DNA of 61,712 bases, filler included, from Candidatus Babelota bacterium (GTDB lineage Bacteria > JAGOBX01): the NCBI GenBank assembly GCA_017999075.1. It is 10 parts of 10 records of this genome, joined end to end, with 100 filler letters (N's around TTAATTAATTAA, not from the genome) between each part and the next. Parts side by side here need not be neighbours in the genome. Positions count along the whole stretch, not along the records: positions 19,700 to 33,157 come from JAGOBX010000042.1; 9 more parts are not named here. The stretch is one strand, 5' to 3'. Both the position numbers and the translations under genes were made by a program. The notes under the pieces were generated by a model. The model had not been told where the DNA came from, did not search any database, and was given only the letters and a program-made list of their open reading frames with translations. Below, piece by piece: positions 1,754 to 36,282 of this stretch. How positions within the stretch are numbered: the first letter of the stretch is position 1; every line of letters begins with the position of its first letter.

Positions 1754-1756
1754 TTT

Positions 1757-19599: not shown

Positions 19600-19772
19600 N
19601 NNNNNNNNNNNNNNNNNNNNNNNNNNNNNNNNNNNNNNNNNNNTTAATTAATTAANNNNNNNNNNNNNNNNNNNNNNNNNNNNNNNNNNNNNNNNNNNNG
19701 GCGTATACTCCTGAAAGTGATATTCCGCTGCTGAAATAGGTTTCTCACCTAGTTAATAAATGGAGGAAACGA

Positions 19773-19964
19773 ATGAATACAATGATATTAACACAAAATG
19801 AAATTAAACGTCAAGGATTTAATGCGCTGCAAAAGAATCTTGGGATAAGCGGTTTTATTAAATTTATCCAACAGTTCGATTTAGGCGACGGTGATTATAC
19901 AAAAGAACGGAAAAAAATTGTAAAAAAGAAAACTGTAGTGGAAATTGTTAAAGAAATTAGATAG
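19773..19964 (+). CDS. Small protein resembling PIN-toxin-associated antitoxin-like proteins
   Basis: GGAGG RBS; EIKRQGFNAL..LG...IKFIQQF..GDGDYTKER pattern. Confidence 0.55.
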   Translation: MNTMILTQNEIKRQGFNALQKNLGISGFIKFIQQFDLGDGDYTKERKKIVKKKTVVEIVKEIR

Positions 19965-20011
19965 AAATTTGTTATTTCAAAATCACATTTCAGATTTTTT
20001 AATTAGTATAA

Positions 20012-20256
20012 TTCCGATATAGATTTTAATCTAATCGGAAATCACTAACCGGAATCCGTAATTGTTTTAGCAGTCCTCCGGGTATCCGGTGGTGCGGAAG
20101 GCAACCCGACAGCCTCCTTCACCGTTGTTCCTACTGCCGCAGCGCAAAACACGGCTAGAGCCGGATTGCGAACCTTTTGGATTACTTTTCGGACTGTTTT
20201 TATAATAATTTTTCGTCATACCAATCCTGGCACCATTCCAATACATTACCGCTCAT
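20012..20256 (-). pseudogene. Decayed copy of the FGE/CLec 3' end of gene 21868-24198 (orphan VR-like cassette)
   Basis: Reads MSGNVLEWCQDWYDE(fs)YYKNSPKSNPKGSQSGSSRVLRCGSRNNGEGGCRVAFRTTGYPEDC*NNYGFR; aligns to 21852-22104 including sequence past the stop. Confidence 0.85.
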
Positions 20257-20299
20257 TAGGAACTTTTATTCTGCAATTTTTCCACTTTTTTTCCATTAT

Positions 20300-21613
20300 C
20301 TACTCTACAATTTTATTTATTGCCCATTTCCAATATGGTACACATATTACTGTATAATCCTCAATTTTCTTCAATTCTTCCTGAGATTTGGTTATAATAA
20401 AACCTTTTTTTAATTTGAATTTTTTCAGCGCTTCAAGCAGTCCTGTTATTTCACGGACTTCGTTATTTCTATTCAATTCATAACATACTTGATAAGCGCT
20501 ATCGATTTTTTTATTTTTACCTGTAATAAAATCACATTCTCTTGATTTATCATTTTTATAATAAAAGATTTTATTTTCGCGCTTAAGCAATTCTAAAAAC
20601 ACTGCATTTTCAAGTTTTCTGCCTGCATTTTCATTCTCGCTGAATTCTGCAATATTTATGAAACCATTGTCAGCAATATAAATTTTTTTTGACATATACT
20701 GCTCCGATGTCTTCAATGAATATTTCCCTGCAAAATATAAAAACCCTATATCTTCAAGATATGAAAAATAATCAAATACTGTGTCCTTGCTTAAACTGTA
20801 TTCTTTTTTATATTTGTTTATAAATGAATTAACTGAAAATTCACAGGCGTAATTGGTAAGCACATAATGCATAATCAGTTTTATTATATGCGTATTCCTT
20901 ATCGCGTAGCGTTCGACTATATCCTTGAAGATTATCATATCAAGATAATCCTTCAACCGCTCGTTTTTCTGGTGTATATCGTATTCCATTGTAACCGCAG
21001 GAAATCCGCCAAACCGAATGAATTCGTTTGCTCTTTTAACTATTCCAAACCGCGCTGTTGAGTATTCGCTGTTCTTTTCAATAACGCTGTTATTGAATTT
21101 CAGAAATTCATCGAAACTAAGCGGATATATTTTATAAGTGACTATTCTGCCGCGTAATTCGGTTGCTATCTCTGAACTCAGTAATCTGCTCGATGACCCT
21201 GTTATAGTTATCCTGTATTTCTTTTTTTCATATAACCGTTTTATAAACAATCCCCATTTATCAAGATTCTGTATTTCGTCAAAAAAAATATATAACTGCC
21301 TGCTGATATTTTCAGGAAATAATTCATAATACGCTTCAATTATCGAATCGTAACCGTTCGCGCTGCTGTTTAAATTTATAAGACGCTCGTCGTCAAAGTT
21401 GATATACAATATCTGATTTATATTTGTCCTGCCTTTCAGCAACTTCCTTATTTCCGTAAACAGCAGGTATGTCTTACCGCTTCTACGCAGTCCGATAATT
21501 GTGTTTATTTCGTTAGTGTAACGCAACGCCGTATTTCGTTCATATACCTTTTCGCTGAAATTCTTTATGTTTTCCTGCCACTCAACGATAATTCTTTTTA
21601 AATTTTCTTTCAT
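20300..21613 (-). CDS. AAA+ ATPase, AAA_14 + DUF4143 family
   Basis: GLRRSGKT Walker A, FFDEIQN Walker B, ITGSSS, GGFP, KKIYIADNG, ENAVFLEL..ECDF. Confidence 0.92.
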   Translation of the reverse strand: MKENLKRIIVEWQENIKNFSEKVYERNTALRYTNEINTIIGLRRSGKTYLLFTEIRKLLKGRTNINQILYINFDDERLINLNSSANGYDSIIEAYYELFPENISRQLYIFFDEIQNLDKWGLFIKRLYEKKKYRITITGSSSRLLSSEIATELRGRIVTYKIYPLSFDEFLKFNNSVIEKNSEYSTARFGIVKRANEFIRFGGFPAVTMEYDIHQKNERLKDYLDMIIFKDIVERYAIRNTHIIKLIMHYVLTNYACEFSVNSFINKYKKEYSLSKDTVFDYFSYLEDIGFLYFAGKYSLKTSEQYMSKKIYIADNGFINIAEFSENENAGRKLENAVFLELLKRENKIFYYKNDKSRECDFITGKNKKIDSAYQVCYELNRNNEVREITGLLEALKKFKLKKGFIITKSQEELKKIEDYTVICVPYWKWAINKIVE

Positions 21614-21646
21614 TACATAACCGCCAATAAAATAATTTTATATCCT

Positions 21647-21674
21647 ATTATATTAGGAAACTATTATTTTACAA
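21647..21674 (-). promoter_or_regulatory. Sigma70-like promoter of the ATPase gene
   Basis: TTGTAA-16 nt-TATAAT on the minus strand, overlapping a TCCTA-N6-TAGGA inverted repeat. Confidence 0.5.
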
Positions 21675-21851
21675 GTAAATTTTTGAAAATACAATAAATT
21701 TATTTCGGCTTGAGCTTCCGCTCTTGCCCAAATTTCATTCTTTCTTCTGCAACTTCTCCTTACTTTTTCCAAAGGGTAAAAGGGTTCCCGTCAGTTAAAA
21801 TATGCTGAATTTTACGAACTGACAGGCAAGTCCAAAGTGTTATTCTGTACT

Positions 21852-21884
21852 CTGTCCGATATAGAGTTTAATCTAATCGGACAG
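21852..21884. repeat. Hairpin across the stop codon of the FGE-domain gene
   Basis: CTGTCCGAT-A-TAGA..TCTA-ATCGGACAG; homologous hairpin at 20012-20040. Confidence 0.75.
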
Positions 21885-24198
21885 CACTAACCAACCGGAA
21901 GCCGTAGTTGCTGCCGCGGTACGACGGGCCGTTGCCGTCGCGGCTGGCAACACGACAGTAGTCGTCGCCGCCGTCGTACCAACCGCCGCCGCGCAAAACA
22001 CGGCCCGAGCCGAATTGCGGACCGTTAGGATTATCGGTCAGACTATTTGAATAATAGTCCTCCTGATACCAGTCCTGGCACCATTCACAGACATTGCCGC
22101 TCATATCGTATAAGCCATAACCGTTAGACCGCTTCTGGCCAACACTGTTTGTCCTGTTTCCGCTGTTTGAGCTATACCAGCCAACCTCGTCTAAATCATC
22201 GCTACCGGAGTATTCATATTCCTGCCCCCCTTTTGCTGCGTATTCCCATTCCGCCTCTGTCGGCAAGCGGAGCTTCATTCCTGTTATTTCATTTATTTTT
22301 TCTATAAATTCCTGACAATCCTCCCAACTTACTTGTTCGACTGGAAGATTATTGCCTTTAAATTCACTGTGGTTTTCTCCCATTACCGCTTCCCATTGTT
22401 CCTGCGTTACTTCGTATTTGCCGATATAAAAATCATCAAGTGTTACGCGGTGAACAGGTTTTTCATCATCGCTTCCATTATTAGAGCCCATATTAAAATT
22501 TCGGCCTTCTATAAAGACCATTTCAAGTTTAACGCCTCCGCCTAAATCAATCTCATCAGTAACGCCGTGTTTTATTTTCGGCAACGCAATATTCAATGCA
22601 AGCAATTTATTAAATCTCTTAACAAGCCCTCTGCTCTGTATTTTCCCTGCGTAATCCAGCCATTTATTCTTAAATGCTTCAAGGTATTTCTGCTGAATAT
22701 TCTGCCGCAGTTTTGATTTCACCATTTTTTCCATACTACCGAGTTCAGCTTTAAAATCGCCTTCGCGTTTTTTTATTGTCGCTTCCATTTCTATTTTCGC
22801 TTCTTCGGCAGACTGTATATACGGTGCAAGCATATTCGGATACTGACTGCTGATTTCAGGAAAAGCAGAACTCGCTTTTATTTTTTCCTGCATTTTATTC
22901 AAAGCGTCAAGTTTCCTCTGAATATCCTGTTCGTTCTGGCATTTCTGCAATTCTGTCTGATACCATTGCCGCATTTCTGAGGAATATTTTTCTTTTGCTT
23001 CTTCGTATTTACGTTTTTCTTCTTCCTTGCGTTTGCGTTCTTCCTCGTCCTTCCGCTTGCGTTCAAGTTCCTGTTGTTTTGCATAAACTTCGCGCCAGTT
23101 TTCAATTTTTGTATTTTTCATTTTTGAATAATCGATTACTTCTTCGTCATCGGATTTATATGTGAACACAGGCAGTTTCTCGTCAAGATATGAATTGTCA
23201 ATTTCTGTTTTTGGCCTGTTAGCCGCCTCCGCTTCAATCTCGCTCATAGCTTCCGCTGCAATATCCAGCTCAGATTTTCGGTTTTCAACTTCATTGGCTT
23301 TTTCGTCTTTCTTATAAGAAAATAAATTGAAATGAGAATATTCAACATCTCCGTCAGCCATATAAACTGGCGTCATCCGATTAACGCCTTTCTGGTCAGC
23401 ATACTCGGCTATCTTGATTTCAGCGTATGCTGTCAATTCTTCAATAGAAATCTTCAAGTCATTGTTCTTATCCATCTGCGGCAGCGCCCGCGATGACTCC
23501 TTCATATAAGTAAAATAATATGTGAACGCGCCATTGTTCTTATTTATATTTTCAATTGATTTTTCGTTATTTCCGCACGAAAAGATTGTTTTTACAATTG
23601 TCCCGCGTTCATCCGAGCGCCGAGCGGCAGAGCGGAGCTCCGCTGGATTATCCTCCCGTATCTTAACGCCTTTGCCTGGCTTTAAATTAACCTGCATTTC
23701 TCTGCCCGAGTCCCTGTCTTTTTTCTGAATTATAGGACGCGCTGCGTCAATTATTATAACAACTTCTTTCGGATTATTCTGTTTCAGCATATTGCGGATG
23801 CCAGACAAATCAAGGATGCCCATTTTAGTTTCTATATTTGCGTCAGAAGCAAATAACTGAACAGTATTCTTGTCATCAGTGAACGCCCTGCCGCTGAAAT
23901 AAAATATGATACGGTCATCGGGTCTTATTGTTCTGCTGAAATCGCTTATAAACTTGAACAACCGCGAAGCTGTCAGCATATTATTAGTTTTGTAATCATC
24001 TTTAAACAGCAGCGTGTAATCATCCTCAAATCCCGAATAATTAAGCAGGAATTTCATATCATCAGCATCGCCGTGACAGCAGGGCAGCGGCGTATAGAAA
24101 TCATAATTTTGTATGCCGATAATTACTGCACGGTTTTTAGCGTAAACGCTTGTGCATACAGCCATAAGTAAAAACAATACAAGCACTTTATTAAGCAT
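21868..24198 (-). CDS. Secreted pseudocaspase (C14 fold, dyad lost) + coiled coil + FGE-sulfatase/CLec domain; probable DGR target
   Basis: Signal peptide; AVIIGIQNY; FYFSGRA (His to Arg); IIDAAR (Cys to Ala); FYIGKYEVTQEQW, RLPTEAEWEYAA, GLYDMSGNVCEWCQDWY, RVLRGGGW..YGFRLV. Confidence 0.9.
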   Translation of the reverse strand: MLNKVLVLFLLMAVCTSVYAKNRAVIIGIQNYDFYTPLPCCHGDADDMKFLLNYSGFEDDYTLLFKDDYKTNNMLTASRLFKFISDFSRTIRPDDRIIFYFSGRAFTDDKNTVQLFASDANIETKMGILDLSGIRNMLKQNNPKEVVIIIDAARPIIQKKDRDSGREMQVNLKPGKGVKIREDNPAELRSAARRSDERGTIVKTIFSCGNNEKSIENINKNNGAFTYYFTYMKESSRALPQMDKNNDLKISIEELTAYAEIKIAEYADQKGVNRMTPVYMADGDVEYSHFNLFSYKKDEKANEVENRKSELDIAAEAMSEIEAEAANRPKTEIDNSYLDEKLPVFTYKSDDEEVIDYSKMKNTKIENWREVYAKQQELERKRKDEEERKRKEEEKRKYEEAKEKYSSEMRQWYQTELQKCQNEQDIQRKLDALNKMQEKIKASSAFPEISSQYPNMLAPYIQSAEEAKIEMEATIKKREGDFKAELGSMEKMVKSKLRQNIQQKYLEAFKNKWLDYAGKIQSRGLVKRFNKLLALNIALPKIKHGVTDEIDLGGGVKLEMVFIEGRNFNMGSNNGSDDEKPVHRVTLDDFYIGKYEVTQEQWEAVMGENHSEFKGNNLPVEQVSWEDCQEFIEKINEITGMKLRLPTEAEWEYAAKGGQEYEYSGSDDLDEVGWYSSNSGNRTNSVGQKRSNGYGLYDMSGNVCEWCQDWYQEDYYSNSLTDNPNGPQFGSGRVLRGGGWYDGGDDYCRVASRDGNGPSYRGSNYGFRLVSAVRLD
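21895..22000 (-). repeat. Putative DGR variable region (VR)
   Basis: 22 of 27 codons in 21898-21978 end in C (TAC GAC GGC GGC GAC GAC TAC..AGC CGC GAC GGC AAC GGC..TAC CGC GGC AGC AAC TAC); GC-rich patch at the CLec ligand-binding end. Confidence 0.75.
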
Positions 24199-24231
24199 TT
24201 TATTTCCTCGCTAATTTATAGTCAAACTTGT

Positions 24232-25944
24232 TTATTTTTTTGCTTTTTTCTTTATTTGAGATTTTTGTAAGTTTTTAACAGGAACCCCATTTTTTGAAGG
24301 TTGTTTCATTATTTCTTTTTTAGGTTTTTCTGCGCCATAATAAATAACTTCCTCGTATCTTTCAGATAATTCGGATGATACTTTATCAATATACGGTTTA
24401 TAGTCACTCCATTTATCTTTAAACGCGCTGACAAAATTAAGTTTGATATTTTTCTGCAAATCAGTTTTCAGCATTTTTTCTATTTCTGAAAGGTCAGCAG
24501 AAAGTTTATTGCTGAATTCTCGATATACTGCATCTTTCTTGTTCTTCGCAGTTTTCACTTCATTGAATACCGGTTCAATTAGCATCATGATTTTACTGGT
24601 TATATCTTCAAACCGCTTTTCTGAATTAATTTCATTTTTAAATTTCACAAGCGCGGAATATTTCTCATCTATGGATTTTGATTTATTAATTTTATTTATA
24701 ATATCTGAATACATTTGCTTTGATTTTATGAAATACTGTTTTTTCGATTTATGAAATGCGGCGCGTTCCTCCTCCTCATTAATTTGCGTTTCTATTTCTT
24801 TCTGGCGGTCGAGTATTTCTTCCCAGGAAAAAATATCCTGCGTACTGGCAGCTGAATTAAGCGCTGCTTCAAGTTTGGTTTTTGAATATTTCGGAGTATA
24901 TTCAGGAATATCGTCATCCAACGCATTGCTGTCAAGTTTCATAGAGTTAATCTTTGACAAAGCATCCGATTCGTCGTATGAAAACAATATATCCTTTGTC
25001 TTGTTAACAGCAGATGACTGCATAGCGTTAACAGTAGCAGAATTATCAAACTTGAAAAGTTTTGTATGTCCGCTCATAACTCCGCCTTCAATGCTGAATA
25101 CAGGGTTCATTTCGTTCAGGTTATTGCCGCGGCAGTATTCCTCAAGTCTGCTTTTAGCGAATACCGTTAATTCCTCGATTGTTACTATCCCGTCGTTATT
25201 CAAATCATTATCGTTTATCGCGTTCTTTATGCCTGAATTCTTTGTCTCAATCGGATATGTAAAATAATAAGTGAACGCGCCATTATTCTTTTCGTGCCGC
25301 TCGAACGACTGCTGCCCTTCCGCGCACGCATAAATCATTTTGATTACTGTCTGCGCGTTCTTGCGGTTTTCTTTTGCTTCCAGATTTTTCTGCGCGTCAA
25401 TTCCAGCCCCTGTATTGAAATATGATTTTATCTCCTGACCCTTATTTCTGCCTTTCAATACTTCAAATGTCCTGCAAGCGTCTATTATCATAACAATTTC
25501 TTCAGGATTGTTTTTCTTTAAATAATTTTTTATGTTCACAAGCGGCAGGCTGCCGAATTTCTCTGGCAAATCGCGATTGCCGTCATACGCAAGCAGATAG
25601 TTATTACCTTTATCATCGCCTACTCCGTGTCCGCTGAAAAAGAACAGCACATTATCGCCTGCTTTGACAGCTCTGGAAAAATCATTAATATTACGCATAA
25701 TTTTAGCGGCAGTCAAAGGGTCGCTGGATTTTTCGTCCTTCAAAACCATTATGTCTTCGTCCTCATATCCTGACATGGCAAGCAGTTGCCGCATATCGTC
25801 AACATCGCCGTGCGTACAGGACAACGGCGCATAATCCGCATAATTCTGAACGCCGATAAGAATCGCCTTTTTCGCGGCAGACAAAGTATTTGACATTAAC
25901 AAAATGGTTATAAACACTGATGCTACAATTTTTTTCATAAACAT
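24232..25944 (-). CDS. Secreted caspase-family (peptidase C14) protein with coiled-coil C-terminus
   Basis: Signal peptide; AILIGVQNY, FFFSGHG, IIDACR, GAFTYY; EF-hand-like DLNNDGIVTIEEL; GGGAG RBS. Confidence 0.9.
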   Translation of the reverse strand: MFMKKIVASVFITILLMSNTLSAAKKAILIGVQNYADYAPLSCTHGDVDDMRQLLAMSGYEDEDIMVLKDEKSSDPLTAAKIMRNINDFSRAVKAGDNVLFFFSGHGVGDDKGNNYLLAYDGNRDLPEKFGSLPLVNIKNYLKKNNPEEIVMIIDACRTFEVLKGRNKGQEIKSYFNTGAGIDAQKNLEAKENRKNAQTVIKMIYACAEGQQSFERHEKNNGAFTYYFTYPIETKNSGIKNAINDNDLNNDGIVTIEELTVFAKSRLEEYCRGNNLNEMNPVFSIEGGVMSGHTKLFKFDNSATVNAMQSSAVNKTKDILFSYDESDALSKINSMKLDSNALDDDIPEYTPKYSKTKLEAALNSAASTQDIFSWEEILDRQKEIETQINEEEERAAFHKSKKQYFIKSKQMYSDIINKINKSKSIDEKYSALVKFKNEINSEKRFEDITSKIMMLIEPVFNEVKTAKNKKDAVYREFSNKLSADLSEIEKMLKTDLQKNIKLNFVSAFKDKWSDYKPYIDKVSSELSERYEEVIYYGAEKPKKEIMKQPSKNGVPVKNLQKSQIKKKAKK

Positions 25945-25964
25945 CACACTCCCTGATTTTACTT

Positions 25965-26378
25965 TCATAATTTCGGTTTAATCCAGTCTTCATATTTTAA
26001 TCCGGATATCAGCGAGAAATGTCCGGTATTACCTGTAATCAGAGTAAAATTATTTTGTATAGTTATCGATGCTATACGCAAATCAGGTTCGCTAACGCTT
26101 ATTCCTTTTCTGTTCATTTGCGCTTTAAGCCGACCGTATATTTCAGCGCTCGCCGTATCAAACGGCAATATTGACAGGTAAGGGAATATACGTTCTTTAT
26201 ACGCTTTCAGCAATATATCGCTGTTTGAAGAATTGTATATACCAAAATATATCTCGGCAATATTTACCGATGTCGTGAACTGCATATTCTGCGGAACTGT
26301 TCTCAGTTTTTTCAGCAGCCGGTCTGACGGTTTTTTTTTCATAGTGTTGCTTATTGTATCAGTATCATAAACATACAT
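25965..26378 (-). CDS. vapC: VapC/PIN-domain toxin
   Basis: YVYDTDTIS, AEIYFG, DLRIASI, LITGNTGHF. Confidence 0.9.
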   Translation of the reverse strand: MYVYDTDTISNTMKKKPSDRLLKKLRTVPQNMQFTTSVNIAEIYFGIYNSSNSDILLKAYKERIFPYLSILPFDTASAEIYGRLKAQMNRKGISVSEPDLRIASITIQNNFTLITGNTGHFSLISGLKYEDWIKPKL

Positions 26379-26644
26379 TATAAAGATACCTCGCGCTCAG
26401 ACGACTTTTTCCTTTCAGAATAAATAATATCCACAAATCTATCTACTTCCTCGTCAGTCATTGCTCCTGCCGCATTCAGTAAACCGTTCCCTGAATTATT
26501 GCGCGCATATTCAGAAAAAGGCATAATAACCGCGACATTCTTTTTTTTCTTTGTTATAAAAATTTTTTCTTTTCTTGACTGTACATCGTTGATTATGGCA
26601 GACAGCGATGCTTTTGCTTTGGTCAATGAATAAACATTCGGCAT
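26378..26644 (-). CDS. Phd/YefM-family antitoxin
   Basis: SLTKAKASLSAIINDV..EKIFITK...VAVIMP; stop overlaps the vapC start. Confidence 0.85.
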   Translation of the reverse strand: MPNVYSLTKAKASLSAIINDVQSRKEKIFITKKKKNVAVIMPFSEYARNNSGNGLLNAAGAMTDEEVDRFVDIIYSERKKSSEREVSL

Positions 26645-26695
26645 ATAAATCACCTCGTTAATCACGGATTATGCTAATGCAATATTTAGGTTAAT

Positions 26696-26724
26696 AATAT
26701 AGTCTGTAAAACTATAACTGTCAA
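26696..26724 (-). promoter_or_regulatory. Promoter/operator of the phd-vapC pair
   Basis: TTGACA-17 nt-TATATT with an internal TATAGT-N7-ACTATA inverted repeat. Confidence 0.7.
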
Positions 26725-26810
26725 GCAAAATTTAAATCAAAACACATAAACGCATAATGCAACTTGAACATGAAAACCTTGTTAGAAAAATACTATTATT
26801 TTTTTCAGCG

Positions 26811-27983
26811 TCAATAATGCGTAAACTCATACACTTTCATAATATACGGCTTGCCTGTCAGCATATCAGGAAATCCGTTTATCTCATTGCGTATCGGATT
26901 CGGCGAACTTTTTATAATCGTGCCTTTCGCTGAATAGTTTTTTGTAATATCTACTTTGAACATATCATCGCTTATATTATTTTTAATTTGTTTTATCAGA
27001 GTATTTATTTCTTTCTGTTCTTCCTTGAACGAAAACACATAAAATATTTCTTTGCCTTTAATATCGTCAAACGCATATACCTTTCTATCCGGAATATAAT
27101 ATTCAATGCCTTTGCGCAGCGGGTTGCTGACTGACATATTCTGGTCATCAGGGAATATCAGGTTAACCTTTCTCGACGAGTCTATATTAAATACATAAAG
27201 GTAACAGTCCGCTGACGGCCGGGCATACAAACGGAAACTTTCGTCAGACATCACTGATTCGCCTGACTGCAATATCTTCTCAGAACCGTATGTTTTCTTT
27301 GTCATAAATGCGAACTGCATTTCAACAGGTAAATCAGCAAGCGCTTTTGCCCTTTCAAGTTCTATCTGCTTTCTGCCTTCAATTTCTTTTTCCTTTGCTT
27401 TTATTTTCTCAACCTCTTTCTGCTTTTTACTTTCAATAACTTTCAAATATTCGTCTTCCGGAACTTTGGCTTTCACAAATACTTTGTAATATTGTTCTAT
27501 TATATCATTATCAGACATTGCAGCCCATTTTTCAATATACCATTCGCTTGTCTTGACACGCGACACAAGCGCGTCTATCGCTTGCTTTTCATTGTTTACT
27601 GTTGCTTTAGTCGCGTCATGAATGTCAGAAGATAATCCGAAACCTGTAGTTATGCTTTTATAAAGTTCAGTCACTTCAACTCCGCAGTATGCCGCGAATT
27701 TTTTTATGCAGTCGCGGTGCGCGTTTTCACGGGCTTCCTTCTCTGTTGCGATTTTATCAGATATTCCGATAAAAAACATAAAACCTGCGGCAGGTTCCGG
27801 TTCATTGAATATCCATTGCGGCTTGGTTTCCGGATAAGCGGATAACAGCCGCTCGCCTGTAAACTTTTTCTGTATAACAACTGGAGGCTGTGTATCCGCT
27901 CGCTGCAATTCTTTTTTTGCAGCGCAGCCGAATAATAATAATACCGCAGTCATAAAGCATAATATCAAATTTTTTATATTCAT
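26811..27983 (-). CDS. Lipoprotein with LPP20-like domain and C-terminal DUF4384-like domain
   Basis: Lipobox LFGC; KPQWI..FIGIS; C-terminal DCYLYVFNIDSSRKVNLIFP..GKEIFYVF. Confidence 0.75.
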   Translation of the reverse strand: MNIKNLILCFMTAVLLLFGCAAKKELQRADTQPPVVIQKKFTGERLLSAYPETKPQWIFNEPEPAAGFMFFIGISDKIATEKEARENAHRDCIKKFAAYCGVEVTELYKSITTGFGLSSDIHDATKATVNNEKQAIDALVSRVKTSEWYIEKWAAMSDNDIIEQYYKVFVKAKVPEDEYLKVIESKKQKEVEKIKAKEKEIEGRKQIELERAKALADLPVEMQFAFMTKKTYGSEKILQSGESVMSDESFRLYARPSADCYLYVFNIDSSRKVNLIFPDDQNMSVSNPLRKGIEYYIPDRKVYAFDDIKGKEIFYVFSFKEEQKEINTLIKQIKNNISDDMFKVDITKNYSAKGTIIKSSPNPIRNEINGFPDMLTGKPYIMKVYEFTHY

Positions 27984-27992
27984 ACACTGCCC

Positions 27993-28742
27993 CTATTTAT
28001 CTAAAAAATCATTTTCTAATCTTTTCAATTCATTTAAATAATTATCTTTTATTTTTTTAATACTTTCATCATAATTATCTTCTATTTTCTCTAATTCAAT
28101 ATTATACTTTTCACTCATTAAATTTCTGTTATAATCAAATCTATCAAGAATTTTTTCTGAATTTGTTTCATAAAACTCTTTAATTTTTTCCGACAGTTCT
28201 GTTATTTGAAAGGGCTCAGAATCATTTGCTATTACAACTTGTTTATTCGAAAGTAATTTAATATTTGAATTATCATTGAAATCATTAATCCTGCCGGCAT
28301 TAACGCTTCCTTCAAAAACTGCAATTTCAGTAAAACTATTATTAGCCCTAATTAGTAAAGTAGTGCCTCTTATACATGCTTTTGCTGTGGGGGTAGCAAC
28401 TATATACTCTTGCTGTGAATCTGAAATTTTATCTAATAATATCAATCCTTTTTTTAAAATTATTGATGTGGTTTTTTTATCAAGATTTGAAATTTTAAGT
28501 AAAGCAGAGGTATCAATAAAAATAACAGTATTATCTGCAAAAACCAAATCTGCAGCGCCTGTTTTGTTTGTAATAATTATAGAATTAATATTTACTTCGC
28601 CTATAGTGTCGCATACAATCCACGAAGAAGATAAAGAATCCCTGATTTTAACATTTTGGTTCATCGGATTAATGATGCCAACTGCTGCTTCAATTCTGAA
28701 CTCAATAAAAACAATCAAAAACAAAATCGCATATTTTTTCAT
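27993..28742 (-). CDS. FecR-domain exported protein
   Basis: Signal peptide; ADLVFADNT, VATPTAKACIRGT, IAVFEGSV. Confidence 0.8.
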   Translation of the reverse strand: MKKYAILFLIVFIEFRIEAAVGIINPMNQNVKIRDSLSSSWIVCDTIGEVNINSIIITNKTGAADLVFADNTVIFIDTSALLKISNLDKKTTSIILKKGLILLDKISDSQQEYIVATPTAKACIRGTTLLIRANNSFTEIAVFEGSVNAGRINDFNDNSNIKLLSNKQVVIANDSEPFQITELSEKIKEFYETNSEKILDRFDYNRNLMSEKYNIELEKIEDNYDESIKKIKDNYLNELKRLENDFLDK

Positions 28743-28778
28743 TTTTAAAAATAAAAAACACACAAAGCAATTTTTGAA

Positions 28779-28856
28779 TTAACCCAAGTTTAATCAAAAA
28801 AAGTATTTATTATTTACACATCAATACAATACTAATTTTGAGTAAACCCGGGTTAA
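28779..28856 (-). terminator. Long intergenic stem-loop after the lipoprotein gene
   Basis: 29-nt arms match at 24 positions; two mismatches become G-U pairs on the minus (mRNA) strand. Confidence 0.65.
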
Positions 28857-28865
28857 AATATCATT

Positions 28866-29525
28866 TTATTTATCGAATCCTGATTCCTTCATTTTCTCAA
28901 ATGCATTCAACGCGTCTTGCATTTGTTTTTTCGCCTGTTCATTTTTTGCTTCTTTCATTTTTTCTTTAATTTTTTCCTGTTCTCCTTCAATTGTATCCTT
29001 GTATGCTTGGTCTATCATAGATTTAGGCATACCTGCAAGCCCATATCCTTTATAGTATATTTCTCCGAGTTTTGTCTGCCATTTTTCAAAATACCATTTT
29101 TCTACTTTCAACTGTTTTGCTACACCTGCTGACAATTGTTCTTCAAATCCTCTTGCTGCTTTTGTAGCGTCAGATATATCGCTTGACAATCCGAATTTTG
29201 TAGTTATCTGTTGAAAATGGTCTTTAACAGCAACGCCAAGATAATTTACAACCTGTTTAGCGGAATCTCTGCGGATTTCTTCTCGCATACCGTTTTCAGT
29301 AGAATTCTTTCCAGACAATCCAACAAAATACATTGTAGGTCCTTCGCTTTTAGGTTCTTCAATTGTCCATGAAGGTCTTTCTCCTGAAGTCCAAATCATA
29401 CGTTCTGTTTCCTCAAAAGCTTTGGATACTTCTCCCTCTTTCTTAACAGTATCTTTATTCCCTGCGCAACTAATCAATAAAGAGCTTATAATTATTAATA
29501 ATCCCATAACTTTAAAAATATTCAT
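28866..29525 (-). CDS. LPP20-like lipoprotein
   Basis: Lipobox LISC; RPSWT..YFVGLS; paralogous to 26811-27983 (ITT.FGLSSDI.DATKA..WY.EKW); GGAGG RBS. Confidence 0.75.
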   Translation of the reverse strand: MNIFKVMGLLIIISSLLISCAGNKDTVKKEGEVSKAFEETERMIWTSGERPSWTIEEPKSEGPTMYFVGLSGKNSTENGMREEIRRDSAKQVVNYLGVAVKDHFQQITTKFGLSSDISDATKAARGFEEQLSAGVAKQLKVEKWYFEKWQTKLGEIYYKGYGLAGMPKSMIDQAYKDTIEGEQEKIKEKMKEAKNEQAKKQMQDALNAFEKMKESGFDK

Positions 29526-29740
29526 AATTTTATTCCTCCAAAAAACTACAGATTTATAACACTTTAATCAAAAAAAAATTAAAAACTATATTGGTCCAGG
29601 CAGATTTACTTATACCACCTCCTTTACGCCTGAATCTGATTAAATGGTATAGTTAATATTTCATAATATAAATTTTGTAAAAATGTTAGAACTTCAATTT
29701 GAAAACATTTCATTATACTCTATAATCTTTATTAAGTTCG

Positions 29741-32539
29741 CTACCAATCCACTGTTACACTTCCGGTTGATGTTCCCCCTCCTCCTCCGGAACTTGAGCT
29801 TGCTCCGCCGCCATTTCCTCCACCTCCGCCGCCTCCTGCAGCTGCAGCTCCTCCACCTATAACAATTGCCCAGAACCACCATTTTTTATAAAACGGTTTT
29901 TTCTTCAAAACAATTTTTTCAGATGTAGTCTTATTATGATAGACAGTAGTTTTTAATTTTTGTGAATAAAATGGATGAGAAGTCATATTTACTTTTACAT
30001 AATAATCTCCGGCAGGCAAATTCTTTATTTCTACCGGCGTATTGCTTCCATAAAATTTGTCATTAACATATACTTCAGAATTTTTCGGTTCTGTTTTAAT
30101 CTTCAAATTTCCATTTGGTAATTCAATTTCAAGTTTACTTGTTTTATCTTTTTCAATATTAACTACTGCTGTTTTTTCAATTCCGTATTTTATAACTGTT
30201 ATTTCTATTTTACCGACAGGAATATCTTTTATTTTACAATTACTTTTTGTGTTATGCAAAACTCGGTTAATATAAACATCTGCTCCTTTTGGAGATGTAA
30301 CCAAATCAAGAGCTCCGCGCTCTGCTTTTGCAAAATCTAATTTTATTTCCGTATTTTGGTTTTCAAAAATTTTTACTGTTTCTGAGACAATATCTTTTCT
30401 TTTTTTTACTGCTACTATGTATTCCCCTATCATCAAATCTTTAATGATATCCGGAGTTTTTTTACCTGTATATTTATCGTTAATATAAATATCCGCATCA
30501 TCTTCAGGAATAGATGAAACATCAAGATTCCCTGTAATAGGAATTAAATTTTCATTTAAAACCACAGGCCTATCAAGCGTAATTTCAATTTCTTTTTCCA
30601 AATTTTTATATTTTGATTTTACAAATTTTAATTTATATTTTCCAATCTCTAATTTTAAATCATTTCTTGGCGTTATATATTTATAATCTTTATCATTACT
30701 GTCTGAAATCGTTACTTCTACTTCACTTGGCTCAGTAGCTACAGTTAATAAACCAAAACGAGGATTTAAATTTTCGCGTATTACATATCTTTTATCATCA
30801 TCAATATTTAATTTAAAATAAAGCGGTTCATATAATTTCAATTTAAATGCAATTTCATAATTGCCTGATTTCATATGTTCATTTATATAGGGAGTTTTCC
30901 CGCTATTTACCCCGTTAATAAAAAGTTCAGCGCCTTCAGGAATAGAATTTATGGATACATAGCTGAATCTTGGTTTTAATGGGAGTTTTATTTTAGCTGT
31001 TTCTGCGTCTTTAATCTCAAACTCAGACGTATAATCATAGTATTCCTGTAGTTTAACTGTAACCTTGTGTTTCCCGCTTTTTATTTTATCTAATGTAAAT
31101 GGCGTTTTACCGCGCTCGTAATTTTCATTATCTAAATATATAAGCGCTCCTGAAGGTTCAGTAACGATTTCAACAGACCCATAATTCTGATTTAATTTTA
31201 TATTGTTCAAATCTTCTTTATTATAAGCATTTGCTGGTATTACCACAGTTGTGTCAAAATGGTAATATAAATCTTTAACAATTCTAACTTTTACTGGACC
31301 GGCGGGGATATTTTCTAATGTAGCAGGTGTTTTTTCTTTTTTTAATTCTCCGTCTATATATATATCGGCAAATTCAGGTTCTGATGTTATTCTCAATTTT
31401 CCCGTAACCTTTATTTTTTTCAAAGAATATGTTTTTGTTAATGGTTTCCCGAGTTCTAATTTTATATTCTCTACAATAGATTTATATCCGGTTTTTGAAA
31501 TTACTATTTCATAATCCCCCCACCCAAGTTCAAAATTTTTATCATTATATTTTTGTCCATTTATGGTGATTTCAGAATTATCCGGTGAAACGATTAAATA
31601 TAAACGTTCAGTCTTTTTTACAAGATTATAATTAAAATTTATCGGTAAATTTTCTGATATGGAAATATTTGTAATGTAATCTTCATATTTATCGTTTTTA
31701 AAAATTATTGAATACGCTCCAACAGGTAATGAATCATTAAATGGAGTAACAAAACTTTTTAAAATTTTATTACCAGCATATATTTTCCCGGATGCTCCGG
31801 TTGGTTCGGATGTAACTGTAATAAGTCCAAATTCGCTTTGAAATATAATATGTTTTGTTTTTTTATCATTTGCATTTATTTGAAGACTGAATTCTACTGC
31901 GCTAAAACCATCTTTTATCAGCATTACCGAATGTATACCTGGAGATACTGCAATTGATGTCGGCGTTTTTTTATCAGTTTTAACTCCGTTGATAAATATC
32001 TCAGCTTCAGCCGGATTGCTTGTTAATTCGATAATTCCTGTCTGGACCGCATCGCGCACATCTAATATTTCTTTTGATAATTGTTCTATTGCATTCTCAA
32101 ATTCTTTATAATCATTGATTTTACAGTTTGCAGATGCTGTCTTTTCAGATTGTCCTGTTTCTACATTTATAAGTTTAATATTGAATATAAACATATTGTC
32201 GCCAAACTTCCCTATTGAACCCATTATTATTACCTGTGCAGCAAGAAGTTTTCCAAGTTTTATTCCGCATTCATTGGAAAAACAATCTTCAAACTGTTTT
32301 TTTTGTTCTTCAAGAATTTTTTCAATACGCACAGTTTCTATCAGTTTGAACATTTGTTTATTTTCTGTGTGTTTTCCGATTTTAGTAAATAATAAATCAC
32401 TCGCTGTTTTTGCTGCCATCCTGTCTACATTTTCTAATGTGTCAAGAGGCTTTATTGCAAGTGTCCTGACATCAGAAAAACTATTATTTACGCAAAATAG
32501 TATTATTAAAAAGCTTATAATTACTGTGTTAAAACGCAT
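29741..32539 (-). CDS. Exported CsgG/TolB-N-like + multi-PEGA-domain protein with C-terminal hydrophobic, Gly-rich tail
   Basis: IEKILEEQ..GKLLAAQVIIMGSIGK..LINVETG; about ten (S/T)xPxGAxIYI(N/D)G..TP-type repeats; AAGGAG RBS. Confidence 0.88.
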   Translation of the reverse strand: MRFNTVIISFLIILFCVNNSFSDVRTLAIKPLDTLENVDRMAAKTASDLLFTKIGKHTENKQMFKLIETVRIEKILEEQKKQFEDCFSNECGIKLGKLLAAQVIIMGSIGKFGDNMFIFNIKLINVETGQSEKTASANCKINDYKEFENAIEQLSKEILDVRDAVQTGIIELTSNPAEAEIFINGVKTDKKTPTSIAVSPGIHSVMLIKDGFSAVEFSLQINANDKKTKHIIFQSEFGLITVTSEPTGASGKIYAGNKILKSFVTPFNDSLPVGAYSIIFKNDKYEDYITNISISENLPINFNYNLVKKTERLYLIVSPDNSEITINGQKYNDKNFELGWGDYEIVISKTGYKSIVENIKLELGKPLTKTYSLKKIKVTGKLRITSEPEFADIYIDGELKKEKTPATLENIPAGPVKVRIVKDLYYHFDTTVVIPANAYNKEDLNNIKLNQNYGSVEIVTEPSGALIYLDNENYERGKTPFTLDKIKSGKHKVTVKLQEYYDYTSEFEIKDAETAKIKLPLKPRFSYVSINSIPEGAELFINGVNSGKTPYINEHMKSGNYEIAFKLKLYEPLYFKLNIDDDKRYVIRENLNPRFGLLTVATEPSEVEVTISDSNDKDYKYITPRNDLKLEIGKYKLKFVKSKYKNLEKEIEITLDRPVVLNENLIPITGNLDVSSIPEDDADIYINDKYTGKKTPDIIKDLMIGEYIVAVKKRKDIVSETVKIFENQNTEIKLDFAKAERGALDLVTSPKGADVYINRVLHNTKSNCKIKDIPVGKIEITVIKYGIEKTAVVNIEKDKTSKLEIELPNGNLKIKTEPKNSEVYVNDKFYGSNTPVEIKNLPAGDYYVKVNMTSHPFYSQKLKTTVYHNKTTSEKIVLKKKPFYKKWWFWAIVIGGGAAAAGGGGGGGNGGGASSSSGGGGGTSTGSVTVDW

Positions 32540-32564
32540 TTTATTTAACTCCTTTAAAATAATT

Positions 32565-33044
32565 TTACAGGCGAGGCACCTTAAATAGTTCAATCAATGA
32601 AAATTCAAGAAATGTTTCAATGTTGTCGATACCCAAATCCTTCATTTTAATCCATTCATATTCATTAAAATATACTAATATTTCCCCCGTTTTAAATAAA
32701 TTATTGGCTATTGAATTTTCTCTAACTTTATTAATAACAATTTGCTTATTAGTTTTATCGATTTCATATTCAATACCGCATTTATCAATGATTAATTTTC
32801 GCATATATTCAATTACATCAGCAATTAATTTTTTGTTTTTTTGTTTTAATTCATTATAAATATCTGCATTCGGTTCCTGGCGATCATCACAATAGTAAAA
32901 TTTAATATCAAAAGTCGAATTTTCTTCTACTTTTAAAAAGGCGTCAACTTGAAAAATATTTTTTTTTTCATTAAATTTTATATCCCAATCTTTTTTTATA
33001 TCCAAATTTTTTTCTTCAAACATAAATGAAATTTTATTATTCAT
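32565..33044 (-). CDS. Hypothetical protein with possible partial PDZ-like C-terminus
   Basis: 159-aa ORF; GIEYE..IVINKVRENSIA...TGEILVYFN resembles PDZ. Confidence 0.4.
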   Translation of the reverse strand: MNNKISFMFEEKNLDIKKDWDIKFNEKKNIFQVDAFLKVEENSTFDIKFYYCDDRQEPNADIYNELKQKNKKLIADVIEYMRKLIIDKCGIEYEIDKTNKQIVINKVRENSIANNLFKTGEILVYFNEYEWIKMKDLGIDNIETFLEFSLIELFKVPRL

Positions 33045-33257
33045 ATTATTAGCATTTGTTATTTTTATTGTTGATTTTTGAGTTTTGCCTGAATATAATA
33101 AATTAGCACCAGCTGCAGCATACCAATAAATAGCCGATTTAGCATCATATCCAATACNNNNNNNNNNNNNNNNNNNNNNNNNNNNNNNNNNNNNNNNNNN
33201 NTTAATTAATTAANNNNNNNNNNNNNNNNNNNNNNNNNNNNNNNNNNNNNNNNNNNN

Positions 33258-35981: not shown

Positions 35982-36282
35982 ACAATATTTTTTCTAACCT
36001 AATTGATATTCAAGGCTTTAATATGGTGATTTTTCGGTATGTCCGTAGTCTGTCCAAAAACAGCAAAAGGACTATAAAGGACTATTGCGGACAGTAAAAT
36101 CGGAAAATAATCGGAAAATTTTTATAAAGCAAAAAGTTATTGATATAACAAATTCCAAGAAATTGAAAAATATTTNNNNNNNNNNNNNNNNNNNNNNNNN
36201 NNNNNNNNNNNNNNNNNNNTTAATTAATTAANNNNNNNNNNNNNNNNNNNNNNNNNNNNNNNNNNNNNNNNNNNNTGATTAT

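What the first reader, a model, noticed from the sequence alone, without database searches (positions are those of the whole stretch)
21868..25944. Candidate new system: secreted caspase paired with a pseudocaspase carrying a hypervariable lectin domain
Seen: two adjacent, co-oriented paralogues, both with signal peptides. They align beyond the C14 domain (LDDDIPEY/LDEKLPVF, SWEEILDRQKEIE/NWREVYAKQQELE, EKMLKTDLQKNIK..FKDKWSDY/EKMVKSKLRQNIQ..FKNKWLDY, and an EF-hand-like DxNND..IEEL loop). The upstream gene keeps the dyad (SGHG, DACR) and has no ligand domain. The downstream gene has lost both residues (SGRA, DAAR) and carries an FGE/CLec domain with a DGR-like variable end. Established: caspases are activated by dimerisation, caspase-8 is tuned by its inactive paralogue cFLIP, and FGE-type CLec folds are common DGR targets. 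Inference: a diversified receptor subunit binds an extracellular ligand and controls the active protease through a coiled-coil heterodimer, giving an adaptive sensor-protease in the envelope.
Basis: partly seen in the sequence, partly recalled or inferred. Interest (0 to 1): 0.92.

Follow-up and report, generated by a model that had tools for sequence, protein, structure and literature searches.

The report
Active caspase beside dead lectin-bearing paralogue
Two neighbouring genes for secreted caspase-like proteins, one intact and one with a dead active site plus a sugar-binding-type domain, are a one-off split of a protein that its relatives make as a single active chain, not a conserved new system.

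Summary
casA (24232..25968, -) and casB (21868..24198, -) are tandem paralogues, 33% identical over 555 aa, and both have Sec-type leaders. casA keeps SGHG/DACR. casB has SGRA/DAAR and a C-terminal FGE-sulfatase/CLec domain. Its closest solved relative is the Treponema variable protein TvpA.

The tip of that domain has the NNC-codon look of a DGR variable region: 21 of 26 codons end in C, against 124 of 700 elsewhere, p=4e-12. A stop-codon hairpin follows it.

The "new system" reading is not supported.
- Every relative found keeps His and Cys, and most carry protease and lectin in one chain.
- casB is the positional orthologue of such an active fused gene in a close relative. It has diverged at 34 of 99 family-invariant positions, clustered at the active site.
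- No RT or clean TR lies in the window. The downstream repeat is a decayed 3' gene fragment.
- The variable region is identical in contigs dated 2019 and 2021.

Best reading: lineage-specific complementary degeneration of a secreted lectin-protease. Whether the two proteins bind each other is open. The architecture and the idea are already published for cyanobacteria. Interest is moderate to low.

The parts
24232..25968 (-). casA: a secreted C14 peptidase with an intact dyad, an EF-hand-like loop and a helical stalk, and no lectin domain. The probable start is Met9 or Met11 (25944 or 25938).
   Evidence: ORF. Pfam PF00656 at 2e-23. AF2 mean pLDDT 86.6. Foldseek top hits are MALT1 paracaspase and metacaspases, E 1e-11.
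25051..25872 (-). casA C14 domain (residues 33-306). His114 is the codon at 25627-25629 and Cys165 the codon at 25474-25476.
25168..25206 (-). casA EF-hand-like loop DLNNDGIVTIEEL (residues 255-267): D1, N3, D5, G6, V8, E12.
   Evidence: Read directly from the sequence. The loop is conserved in 10 of 10 rows of A3. In the AF2 model it lies between helices 246-252 and 264-281.
24343..24834 (-). casA helical stalk (helices 379-429, 433-448, 454-500, 506-530, 532-542). It belongs to no known family.
   Evidence: AF2 pLDDT 88-98. No Pfam hit. No usable Atlas hit.
21868..24198 (-). casB: a secreted pseudo-C14 domain, a helical stalk and a TvpA-type FGE/CLec domain.
   Evidence: An SD-like GAGGA lies before Met1.
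23317..24135 (-). casB dead C14 domain (residues 22-294). Arg104 (23887-23889) replaces His and Ala153 (23740-23742) replaces Cys. The loops 104-114 and 210-217 are also remodelled.
   Evidence: Pfam PF00656 at 8.2e-15 on residues 1-310. casB differs at 34 of 99 family-invariant columns. The terminal branch is 1.5, against a median of 0.08. AF2 is confident.
23434..23472 (-). casB EF-hand-like loop DKNNDLKISIEEL (residues 243-255). Gly6 is replaced by Leu.
22600..23106 (-). casB helical stalk (helices 365-421, 426-442, 453-493, 499-517, 523-533).
   Evidence: AF2. It is 25% identical to the casA stalk.
21883..22563 (-). casB FGE-sulfatase/CLec domain (residues 546-772).
   Evidence: Pfam PF03781 at 8.6e-51. 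The best PDB match is TvpA 2y3c, by phmmer (1.6e-44) and by Foldseek (8.9e-23, TM 0.77, rmsd 1.5 A). The first Cys of FGE's 'LCHDSYC' aligns to Gly.
21901..21978 (-). Core of the variable-region-like tip (residues 741-766).
   Evidence: 21 of 26 codons end in C, against 124 of 700 elsewhere; p=4e-12. Compared with L001, the scaffold codons are identical and the differences sit in NNC codons.
21852..21884 (-). Hairpin of 13 bp that straddles the casB stop codon.
   Evidence: DNA fold z = -4.8; 0 of 200 shuffles fold as well. A hairpin lies at the same place after the L005 gene, built from different stem letters.
20026..20256 (-). Decayed copy of the last ~78 codons of a casB-like gene, including the variable-region scaffold, the stop codon and the hairpin (20012-20040). 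It has one frameshift and an in-frame TAA.
   Evidence: Found by the repeat finder as D4 and D18. blastn gives 73% over 241 nt against the casB end. Mismatch spectrum: 26 at A, 31 at other bases, plus gaps. Hairpin.
20300..21613 (-). AAA_14/DUF4143 ATPase between casB and the fragment. It is a conserved neighbour of the C14-FGE gene.
   Evidence: Pfam. PADLOC PDC-S01 at 1.2e-99. It is 75% identical to the gene after the L005 homologue. A more distant one follows L009b.
25965..26665 (-). phd/PIN toxin-antitoxin pair directly upstream. The PIN stop overlaps the first ATG of casA, and the best promoter-like site lies at 26696-26724.
   Evidence: Pfam. Promoter scan.

Best explanation
casA and casB are a lineage-specific pair. 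They derive from a small family of Sec-secreted proteins found in uncultured bacteria from wastewater and digester samples.

The normal family member is a single chain with four parts:
- a paracaspase/metacaspase-like C14 protease with an EF-hand-type loop;
- a helical-bundle stalk of about 200 aa;
- a C-terminal TvpA-type CLec (FGE-fold) binding domain.

That arrangement reads as a lectin-guided extracellular protease.

In this genome the two functions sit on two genes.
- casB is the positional orthologue of the fused active gene. It has lost His, Cys and the neighbouring substrate loops. It keeps the leader, the fold, the stalk and the lectin, so it most likely works as a non-catalytic secreted or envelope binding protein.
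- casA keeps the protease and stalk but has no lectin, so it most likely works as a free, probably Ca2+-modulated protease.

The lectin tip was written by a diversity-generating retroelement (DGR) in the past, as shown by the NNC codons, the TvpA scaffold and the post-VR hairpin. It is not demonstrably being rewritten now.

Shown: the anatomy, the loss of the dyad, the accelerated divergence, the uniqueness of the pair and the DGR codon signature. Inferred: secretion, the binding role of casB, protease activity and Ca2+ dependence of casA, and independent action of the two proteins.
For: Paralogy and domains.

Relatives are fused and active.
- P0002-P0005 have C14 + FGE with SGHG/DACR.
- 9 of 9 locus ORFs that include the catalytic region keep the dyad.
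- 16 of 16 further proteins keep it.
- The best matches to casA, at 37-40% identity, are nearly all C14+FGE fusions.
- The family is tiny: 14 proteins at E<=1e-30 among 1.84 billion representatives.

Positional orthology and acceleration.
- The genes flanking the L005 homologue match window genes at 75% (AAA_14), 86.5% and 79% amino-acid identity. The C14-FGE gene itself matches casB at only 47%.
- By domain, casB vs L001 is 67% in FGE, 36% in C14 and 33% in the stalk.
- dN is 0.59-0.63 in C14 and 0.69-0.76 in the stalk. It is 0.20 in FGE and 0.11-0.15 in the neighbours.
- The casB terminal branch is 1.5, casA is 0.67 and the median is 0.08.
- 34 of 99 family-invariant columns are changed. They cluster at residues 104-114, at 153 and at 210-217.
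- The fold is retained (AF2; MALT1 hits at E 2e-11).

Lectin, not enzyme: TvpA is the best match by both sequence and structure. One of FGE's paired cysteines is Gly in casB.

Past DGR action.
- Codon test, p=4e-12.
- Against L001, same-residue codons are identical in 32 of 44 cases in the VR region, against 52 of 92 in the rest of FGE. The changes sit in NNC codons.
- A conserved hairpin follows the stop codon.
- The related MAG G001 holds a clean DGR of the same CLec type, with 21 of 24 TR/VR mismatches at A.
Against: - The whole genome is not held, and the contig ends about 300 nt past the fragment. A remote RT and TR cannot be excluded, so the variable region may still be live.
- dS is saturated or undefined in most comparisons. 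'Relaxed but not neutral' rests on dN ratios and on assumed orthology.
- In the C14 tree casA and casB join each other as two long branches, which may be an artefact. The origin of casA is therefore unresolved.
- The intact casB ORF could be kept only because a stop codon would also remove the C-terminal lectin. It does not prove that the dead domain has a role.
- The tight spacing of 33 nt, the lack of a terminator-like site between the genes and the shared stalk would suit a joint function, which this reading does not require.
- Secretion, Ca2+ binding and protease activity are all untested.
- The public gene call for casB (P0001) starts at Met232 and so skips the dead p20 half.
Confidence: 0.55

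Rival explanations
1. casB is a DGR-diversified receptor subunit. It pairs with casA through the stalks or the C14 domains and switches or steers the protease, giving a heteromeric adaptive sensor-protease in the envelope.
For: - The losses are complementary: protease without lectin, lectin without protease.
- The two stalks are homologous, and both are confident helical bundles.
- Only 33 nt separate the genes, and no terminator-like site lies between them.
- The C14 domains resemble MALT1 paracaspase most closely. That MALT1 is activated by dimerisation is recalled, not tested here.
- Pseudo-caspase partners are known: cFLIP with caspase-8, and TbMC4 with TbMC3 (passage in PMC6426788).
- If the fused ancestor oligomerised through its stalk, a heteromer would rebuild it.
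Against: - The pair occurs in this genome only. All relatives are active, and most are fused.
- The stalks are just 25% identical, and the dead domain has diverged at 34 of 99 invariant positions.
- There is no RT or cognate TR, and the VR is unchanged across the samples.
- The authors of PMC6426788 judge that bacterial pseudo-orthocaspases mostly do not regulate active ones (passage).
Confidence: 0.15
2. casB is a decaying gene. After casA took over proteolysis, or after the DGR was lost, the old fused gene drifted. The dead domain, and perhaps the whole protein, has no function.
For: - casB has the longest branch in the family.
- Several active-site segments are lost, not just two residues.
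- A truncated third copy lies 1.8 kb away, so decay does occur at this locus.
- The VR is static.
- The public gene call omits the first 231 codons.
Against: - The reading frame of 776 codons is open in DNA of about 37-40% G+C.
- 65 of 99 invariant positions are retained.
- AF2 is confident over all three domains.
- The FGE domain is conserved at 67% with dN 0.20.
- A good SD precedes Met1.
Confidence: 0.12
3. casB is a substrate, decoy or inhibitor of casA, a pseudo-enzyme that occupies or is processed by the active paralogue. It is not a receptor.
For: Precedents exist: TbMC4 is processed by TbMC3, and cFLIP pairs with caspase-8 (passage in PMC6426788). The loop at casB residues 160-200 is long, basic and of low confidence (pLDDT 54-69), like an exposed cleavage linker.
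Against: Nothing in the sequence points specifically to this. It does not explain why casB keeps the lectin.
Confidence: 0.08
4. The repeat at 20026-20256 is the template repeat of a DGR whose RT lies just beyond the contig end or elsewhere, and casB is (or was) its target.
For: - It lies downstream of the target, and the homology starts abruptly at ATGAGCGG.
- It is A-rich where casB varies in the 5' half. 26 of 57 substitutions fall at A, although A makes up 58 of 197 bases.
Against: - There are 31 non-A mismatches plus indels.
- In the hypervariable part it has GGT/GAA/GGA/ACC/TAC-type codons, not runs of AAC (beside).
- It extends through the stop codon and carries the post-VR hairpin, which is a target feature.
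- The next 300 nt hold a convergent 63-aa ORF, not an RT.
- tblastn with a DGR RT finds nothing in the window; the best E is 0.96.
Confidence: 0.12

Closest known systems
Metacaspase/orthocaspase-FGE-sulfatase proteins of bacteria, and the DGR variable proteins with an orthocaspase-like N-terminus in cyanobacteria (PMC3501461 and PMC7517822; passages read)
   Same: - C14 domain at the N-terminus and an FGE-fold CLec at the C-terminus.
- 33 of 671 prokaryotic metacaspases carry FGE-sulfatase.
- One Trichodesmium C14-FGE protein is listed as lacking the Cys/His dyad.
- In cyanobacteria the CLec tip is a DGR variable region, and paralogues and remote targets are common.
   Different: [quoted passage not shown]
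- They have an EF-hand-type loop inside the C14 domain and a ~200-aa helical stalk of no known family.
- In this genome protease and lectin sit on two adjacent genes.
- No RT or TR is at hand.
- The papers' supplementary tables could not be opened, so similar split pairs listed there cannot be excluded.
TvpA, Treponema denticola variable protein 1 (PDB 2y3c)
   Same: TvpA is the best match to the casB CLec domain by sequence (1.6e-44) and by structure (TM 0.77, rmsd 1.5 A, 36% identity). The C-terminal scaffold is the same: VLRGGxW...YC.V..R......R.S..GFRL. That TvpA is a secreted, non-enzymatic FGE-fold protein is recalled.
   Different: TvpA is a single-domain lipoprotein that sits next to its DGR (recalled). 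casB carries a dead caspase domain and a stalk, and has no DGR on its contig.
Pseudo-orthocaspases of cyanobacteria (PMC6426788; passages read)
   Same: A bacterial C14 fold that lacks the His-Cys dyad and is kept as an open gene.
   Different: - Those form conserved clades with Tyr/Ser or Tyr/Asn at the dyad positions and an extra N-terminal domain.
- They often occur without an active partner.
- casB has Arg/Ala, is a singleton, and is the fast-evolving orthologue of an active gene.
Caspase-8/cFLIP and TbMC3/TbMC4 pairs of active and pseudo-caspases
   Same: An inactive paralogue is encoded alongside an active one.
   Different: Those pairs are conserved and have been shown to interact or to be processed. 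Here no interaction is shown and the pair is not conserved.
DGR-diversified CLec sensors coupled to peptidase effectors in conflict systems (PMC10907252; passages read)
   Same: The idea is the same: a hypervariable CLec senses a ligand and a protease on another chain acts. Some of those targets have signal peptides.
   Different: Those systems rely on STAND or MoxR NTPases, vWA and adapter domains, trypsin-like or CHAT peptidases, and a DGR in the locus. None of these accompanies casA and casB. The only NTPase nearby is an AAA_14/DUF4143 (PDC-S01) gene.

Membership tests
Peptidase C14 (caspase/metacaspase/paracaspase) | Sequence match to PF00656 above the gathering score | tested here: met
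   casA scores 83.7 bits. casB residues 1-310 score 55.6 bits against a cut-off of 21.4. The scan of whole casB did not list the family at E<=0.01.
Peptidase C14 (caspase/metacaspase/paracaspase) | Catalytic His-Cys dyad | tested here: not met
   This applies to casB, which has Arg104 and Ala153 at the aligned columns. casA meets the feature with His114 and Cys165.
Peptidase C14 (caspase/metacaspase/paracaspase) | Caspase-hemoglobinase fold | tested here: met
   AF2 models are confident. Foldseek finds MALT1 and metacaspases for casA at E 1e-11, and MALT1 for casB at E 2e-11, rank 36.
DGR variable protein of the FGE/CLec (TvpA) type | FGE-fold CLec domain at the C-terminus that resembles known variable proteins | tested here: met
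   PF03781 at 8.6e-51. TvpA is the top hit by sequence and by fold.
DGR variable protein of the FGE/CLec (TvpA) type | Variable region with the signature of adenine mutagenesis (AAC-derived NNC codons on a fixed scaffold) | tested here: met
   21 of 26 codons end in C, against 124 of 700; p=4e-12. Differences from L001 are confined to NNC codons while the scaffold codons are identical.
DGR variable protein of the FGE/CLec (TvpA) type | Cognate template repeat that differs from the VR almost only at A | tested here: not met
   The only repeat in the window has 26 A mismatches, 31 non-A mismatches and indels. The A-free 24-mer of the scaffold has no exact match in viral contigs. The rest of the genome is not available.
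DGR variable protein of the FGE/CLec (TvpA) type | DGR reverse transcriptase in the locus or genome | tested here: inconclusive
   tblastn with the G001 DGR RT finds nothing in the 61.7-kb window; the best E is 0.96. The contig ends at 19722 and no whole genome is held.
DGR variable protein of the FGE/CLec (TvpA) type | Hairpin or cruciform just after the VR (a cis element for homing; mentioned in PMC7517822) | tested here: met
   A 13-bp hairpin lies at 21852-21884, with z = -4.8. The L005 gene has a hairpin at the same place built from other stem letters. Its function was not tested.
DGR variable protein of the FGE/CLec (TvpA) type | VR differs among cells or samples | tested here: inconclusive
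   Contigs from runs X1, X2 and X4 cover 21884-22092 or more with 0, 2 and 0 differences. None of the differences is in residues 741-766. Contigs give a consensus only.
Formylglycine-generating enzyme | Pair of active-site cysteines | tested here: not met
   In the alignment to 6muj and 2q17, the first Cys of 'LCHDSYC' aligns to Gly in casB and the second is kept. Which cysteines are catalytic is recalled.
Cyanobacterial pseudo-orthocaspases (YS/YN types) | Tyr/Ser or Tyr/Asn at the dyad positions, with a conserved clade | tested here: not met
   casB has Arg/Ala. No relative shares this state.
Active/pseudo-caspase heterodimer (caspase-8/cFLIP type) | Physical association of the two paralogues | not testable with these tools
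   This needs co-purification or an equivalent experiment.
Conserved two-gene system (active C14 + dead C14-CLec) | The pair recurs in other genomes | tested here: not met
   No such pair occurs among 11 loci from genome and metagenome scans, or in G001 and G002. The L004 tandem pair is cut before the upstream gene's dyad.

The most novel reading that the evidence does not exclude
The fused ancestor worked as a stalk-mediated oligomer. After tandem duplication, the two copies lost complementary halves and now work only as a heteromer. casB is the retargetable address module, written by a remote DGR. casA is the Ca2+-gated blade. This would be a natural two-chain, lectin-programmable extracellular protease caught soon after it formed.
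Probability: 0.12. Interest if true: 0.7.

Novelty: new variant of a known kind. Interest (0 to 1): 0.33.

Why it matters
Caspase-fold proteases fused to DGR-type lectin domains are known from surveys, but none has a known target or mode of action. This locus offers a natural dissection of such a protein. A close relative has the one-chain active form. Here the protease and the lectin sit on separate neighbouring genes, and the dead domain has diverged four to five times faster than its neighbours. That makes it a convenient pair for asking whether the lectin guides the protease and whether the dead caspase fold has a scaffolding role. It is a single genome's variant, not a widespread system, so the general significance is limited unless an interaction is shown.

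Tried and rejected
- **Whole-genome searches for an RT or TR.** No genome is held for this window.
- **Complex prediction, casA 32-530 with casB 21-521, own alignments.** No verdict. The scores were 0.08 and 0.04 against a mark of 0.32, and the controls were not run. This counts neither for nor against binding.
- **Read laying at 80% likeness.**
  - In X1 no extra contig lay over the hypervariable part (bin 21822-22031 had depth 7.9, against 7.55 for the organism's own contig). A TR could fall below 80% likeness, so this says nothing about its absence.
  - The high depth at 22032-22451 comes from other organisms' FGE domains.
  - One 233-nt X4 contig with 21 differences and 2 gaps is probably from a relative or a paralogue.
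- **Exact search of the A-free 24-mer in viral contigs.** No match.
- **dN/dS.** dS was saturated or undefined in most comparisons, and the ML values of 17-28 are meaningless. Only dN ratios were used.
- **G001's DGR as the writer of the L001 variable region.** Only 43 nt match at 81%, so it is not cognate.
- **Naming the stalk.** Pfam gave nothing at E<=10 worth noting. The Atlas gave no feature hit, and its structure hits were below TM 0.5.
- **Defence-system reading.** PADLOC gave only a generic 'caspase' model for casA and casB, at 1.7e-13 and 5.6e-08.
- **The repeat finder for short inverted repeats after the VR.** It found none, although folding shows the hairpin. The stem has a bulge.
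- **Rfam on the window.** Only one tRNA was found.

Full report
**Setting**

The window is not one stretch of genome. It is ten contigs joined by N44-TTAATTAATTAA-N44 linkers. The finding lies on a 13.4-kb contig, 19700..33157. Other contigs carry ordinary chromosomal genes such as nadB, dnaB and cobT. No whole genome is held for the window. One family member is named by NCBI as coming from 'Candidatus Delongbacteria bacterium'. The DNA occurs in wastewater metagenome runs of a single study.

**Observation**

Two co-oriented ORFs lie on the - strand, 33 nt apart: casA (24232..25968) and casB (21868..24198).

- They align over 555 residues at 33% identity, E 1e-84. The alignment runs from the leader through the C14 domain and a long helical region.
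- The EF-hand-like loop is canonical in casA (D1, N3, D5, G6, V8, E12). It is conserved in all ten rows of alignment A3, and casB has Leu at position 6.
- casA has His114 and Cys165. casB has Arg104 and Ala153.
- Pfam calls Peptidase_C14 in casA (2e-23) and FGE-sulfatase in casB (8.6e-51).
- The scan of whole casB did not list C14. The first 310 residues alone score 55.6 bits, above the cut-off of 21.4.
- The leaders look like Sec signal peptides by eye. No predictor was run.

**Structure**

AlphaFold2 models are confident for both proteins (mean pLDDT 86.6 and 87.2).

- Each has a caspase-fold domain. Foldseek finds MALT1 paracaspase and metacaspases.
- Each then has a poorly ordered linker, followed by a bundle of long helices (casA 379-542, casB 365-533). 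No family can be named for this bundle.
- casB ends in an FGE-fold domain. Its best solved relative is TvpA, the Treponema denticola variable protein, by sequence (1.6e-44) and by fold (TM 0.77, rmsd 1.5 A).
- In the alignment to true FGEs, the first cysteine of the 'LCHDSYC' pair is glycine in casB. That these cysteines are the catalytic pair is recalled.

The domain is therefore a binding module, not the enzyme.

**The family**

A profile of C14 plus stalk was searched against 1.84 billion representative proteins. It found only 14 at E<=1e-30. Word-based searches and contig scans added a few more.

- The typical member is a single secreted chain: C14, stalk, FGE. One member (L003) has MORN repeats in place of FGE.
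- Every member whose catalytic region is visible keeps SGHG and DACR. That covers 9 of 9 locus ORFs, P0002-P0005 and 16 of 16 further proteins, one of them with DACH.
- In the wider set of 156 aligned C14 proteins, 130 have His/Cys, 6 lack the region and 19 besides casB have another residue at one or both columns. Some of those 19 are multi-stretch alignments and may be misaligned.
- None of the 33 other proteins that carry an FGE domain is among those 19.

casB is thus the only dead C14-FGE protein that I found. casA is the only full-length member that ends after the stalk with no C-terminal domain.

The literature already lists the architecture. 33 of 671 prokaryotic metacaspases carry FGE-sulfatase, including one Trichodesmium protein without the dyad (PMC3501461, passages). 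It also lists cyanobacterial DGR variable proteins with orthocaspase-like N-termini (PMC7517822, passages).

**Evolution**

Locus L005, and the near-identical L001 in MAG G001, comes from a close relative.

- Its AAA_14 gene and two lipoprotein/DUF4384 genes are 75%, 86.5% and 79% identical to window genes.
- Its C14-FGE gene sits directly before the AAA_14 gene, as casB does, so it is the positional orthologue of casB.
- It has an intact dyad (L001) and is only 47% identical to casB.
- By domain, casB vs L001 is 67% in FGE, 36% in C14 and 33% in the stalk.
- Non-synonymous distances are 0.59-0.63 in C14 and 0.69-0.76 in the stalk. They are 0.20 in FGE and 0.11-0.15 in the neighbours.
- dS is saturated, so no reliable omega can be given.
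- In the C14 tree casB has a terminal branch of 1.5, casA 0.67 and the median 0.08. The two join each other as long branches, so the origin of casA is unresolved.
- casB differs at 34 of 99 columns that are invariant in the nine other sequences. The changes cluster after the lost His (104-114), at the lost Cys (153) and in the EGQQ..R loop (210-217).

The whole catalytic apparatus has gone, while the fold, the leader and the frame remain. The open frame alone does not show that the dead domain is useful, because any stop codon would also remove the lectin.

**DGR question**

Evidence for past DGR action:

- In residues 741-766, 21 of 26 codons end in C, against 124 of 700 elsewhere (p=4e-12).
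- Against L001, the scaffold codons are identical to the letter and the differences lie in TAC/GAC/GGC/AGC/AAC-type codons. Identical codons among same-residue codons are 32 of 44 in this region, against 52 of 92 in the rest of FGE.
- A 13-bp hairpin straddles the stop codon (z = -4.8). It recurs after the L005 gene with different stem letters. Such cruciforms are cited as cis elements of DGR targets (PMC7517822).
- G001 holds a clean DGR of this CLec type, with 21 of 24 TR/VR mismatches at A. It is not cognate to L001.

Evidence against present activity here:

- The window holds no RT (best tblastn E 0.96).
- The only repeat of the variable region (20026-20256) differs from it at 26 A and 31 non-A positions plus indels. 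It has a frameshift and an in-frame stop.
- That repeat lacks AAC runs where casB varies. It runs through the stop codon and includes the hairpin.

I read that repeat as the decayed 3' end of a third family gene, not as a template.

Contigs from three samples (2021, 2021 and 2019) cover the variable region. They show 0, 2 and 0 differences, none in the hypervariable codons. Contigs are consensus sequences, and one of these samples is probably the source of the window.

So the tip was written by a DGR. Whether it still is cannot be told without the rest of the genome.

**Mechanism**

The best-supported reading is complementary degeneration of a secreted, lectin-guided protease.

- casB is now a non-catalytic binding protein on a caspase-fold and stalk scaffold.
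- casA is a free protease, probably modulated by Ca2+.

The heteromer model is attractive because the losses are complementary and the stalks are homologous. But nothing here shows binding, and the pair does not recur. I give it about 0.12-0.15.

**Comparison and verdict**

- The architecture (C14 + FGE/CLec) is published (PMC3501461, PMC7517822).
- The dead bacterial C14 fold is published (PMC6426788).
- The concept of a hypervariable CLec sensor with a separate peptidase is published (PMC10907252). I read passages only, and supplements were closed.

What is new is a secreted family with an EF-hand loop and an unnamed stalk, and in one genome the split into an active lectin-less gene and a dead lectin-bearing gene. 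This is a new variant of a known kind, of moderate to low interest.

Noticed in passing
window 2955-3054, 6006-6105, 19600-19699, 33158-33257, 36176-36275, 49685-49784, 52696-52795, 55703-55802, 58710-58809: The window is a chain of ten contigs joined by artificial N44-TTAATTAATTAA-N44 linkers. Neighbourhood across these points means nothing. The 27-copy 'repeat family' D1 is these linkers.
   Followed up: yes
window 20300-21613 (-): An AAA_14/DUF4143 ATPase matches the PADLOC candidate defence family PDC-S01 over its full length (1.2e-99). The same gene follows the C14-FGE gene in L001/L005 (75% identity). A more distant AAA_14/DUF4143 gene follows the one in L009. This may be a link or a coincidence.
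   Followed up: partly
window 25965-26665 (-): A phd/YefM antitoxin and a PIN toxin lie directly upstream of casA. The PIN stop overlaps the first ATG of casA. The strongest promoter-like site of the region (11 of 12 matches) lies before the antitoxin.
   Followed up: no
window 19773-19964 (+): A convergent 63-aa ORF with a GGAGG-like site upstream lies at the contig end, just past the decayed fragment. It has no Pfam family; the best E is 0.13.
   Followed up: partly
window 26811-33044 (-), and L005, L006, L009: C14-FGE genes sit among envelope genes: DUF4384 proteins, LPP20-like lipoproteins, a FecR-domain protein and a 950-aa PEGA-repeat protein. In L009 a PEGA-FGE fusion lies directly before the C14-FGE gene.
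   Followed up: partly
L012 (G001 contig C307) 999-2996: This is a clean DGR in the related MAG. The RT is at 1162-2169 (-), the TR at 999-1138 and the VR at 2857-2996, at the contig end. 21 of 24 mismatches fall at A of the coding strand.
   Followed up: yes
L004 (G001 contig C322) 3-2531: This is a second tandem pair of family genes, in the reverse order: the FGE-bearing gene first, then a gene with an intact dyad. The contig cuts off the catalytic region of the first gene and the C-terminus of the second.
   Followed up: partly
window 23503-24198 (-): The public protein record for casB (P0001, 545 aa) starts at Met232 and so omits the leader and the p20 half. Met1 has GAGGA 8 nt upstream, and Met232 has no such site.
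   Followed up: partly
window 6397-19269 (+): A 4290-aa ORF has an internal duplication about 2.8 kb apart (repeat families D2, D3, D5, D9 and D11, at 73-75% identity). It lies on another contig and was not analysed.
   Followed up: no
window 21780-21850 (-): A second strong hairpin (10-bp stem, CCTGTCAGTT...AACTGACGGG) lies in the spacer between casB and the ATPase gene. The fold of the whole 126-nt stretch has z = -4.4.
   Followed up: no
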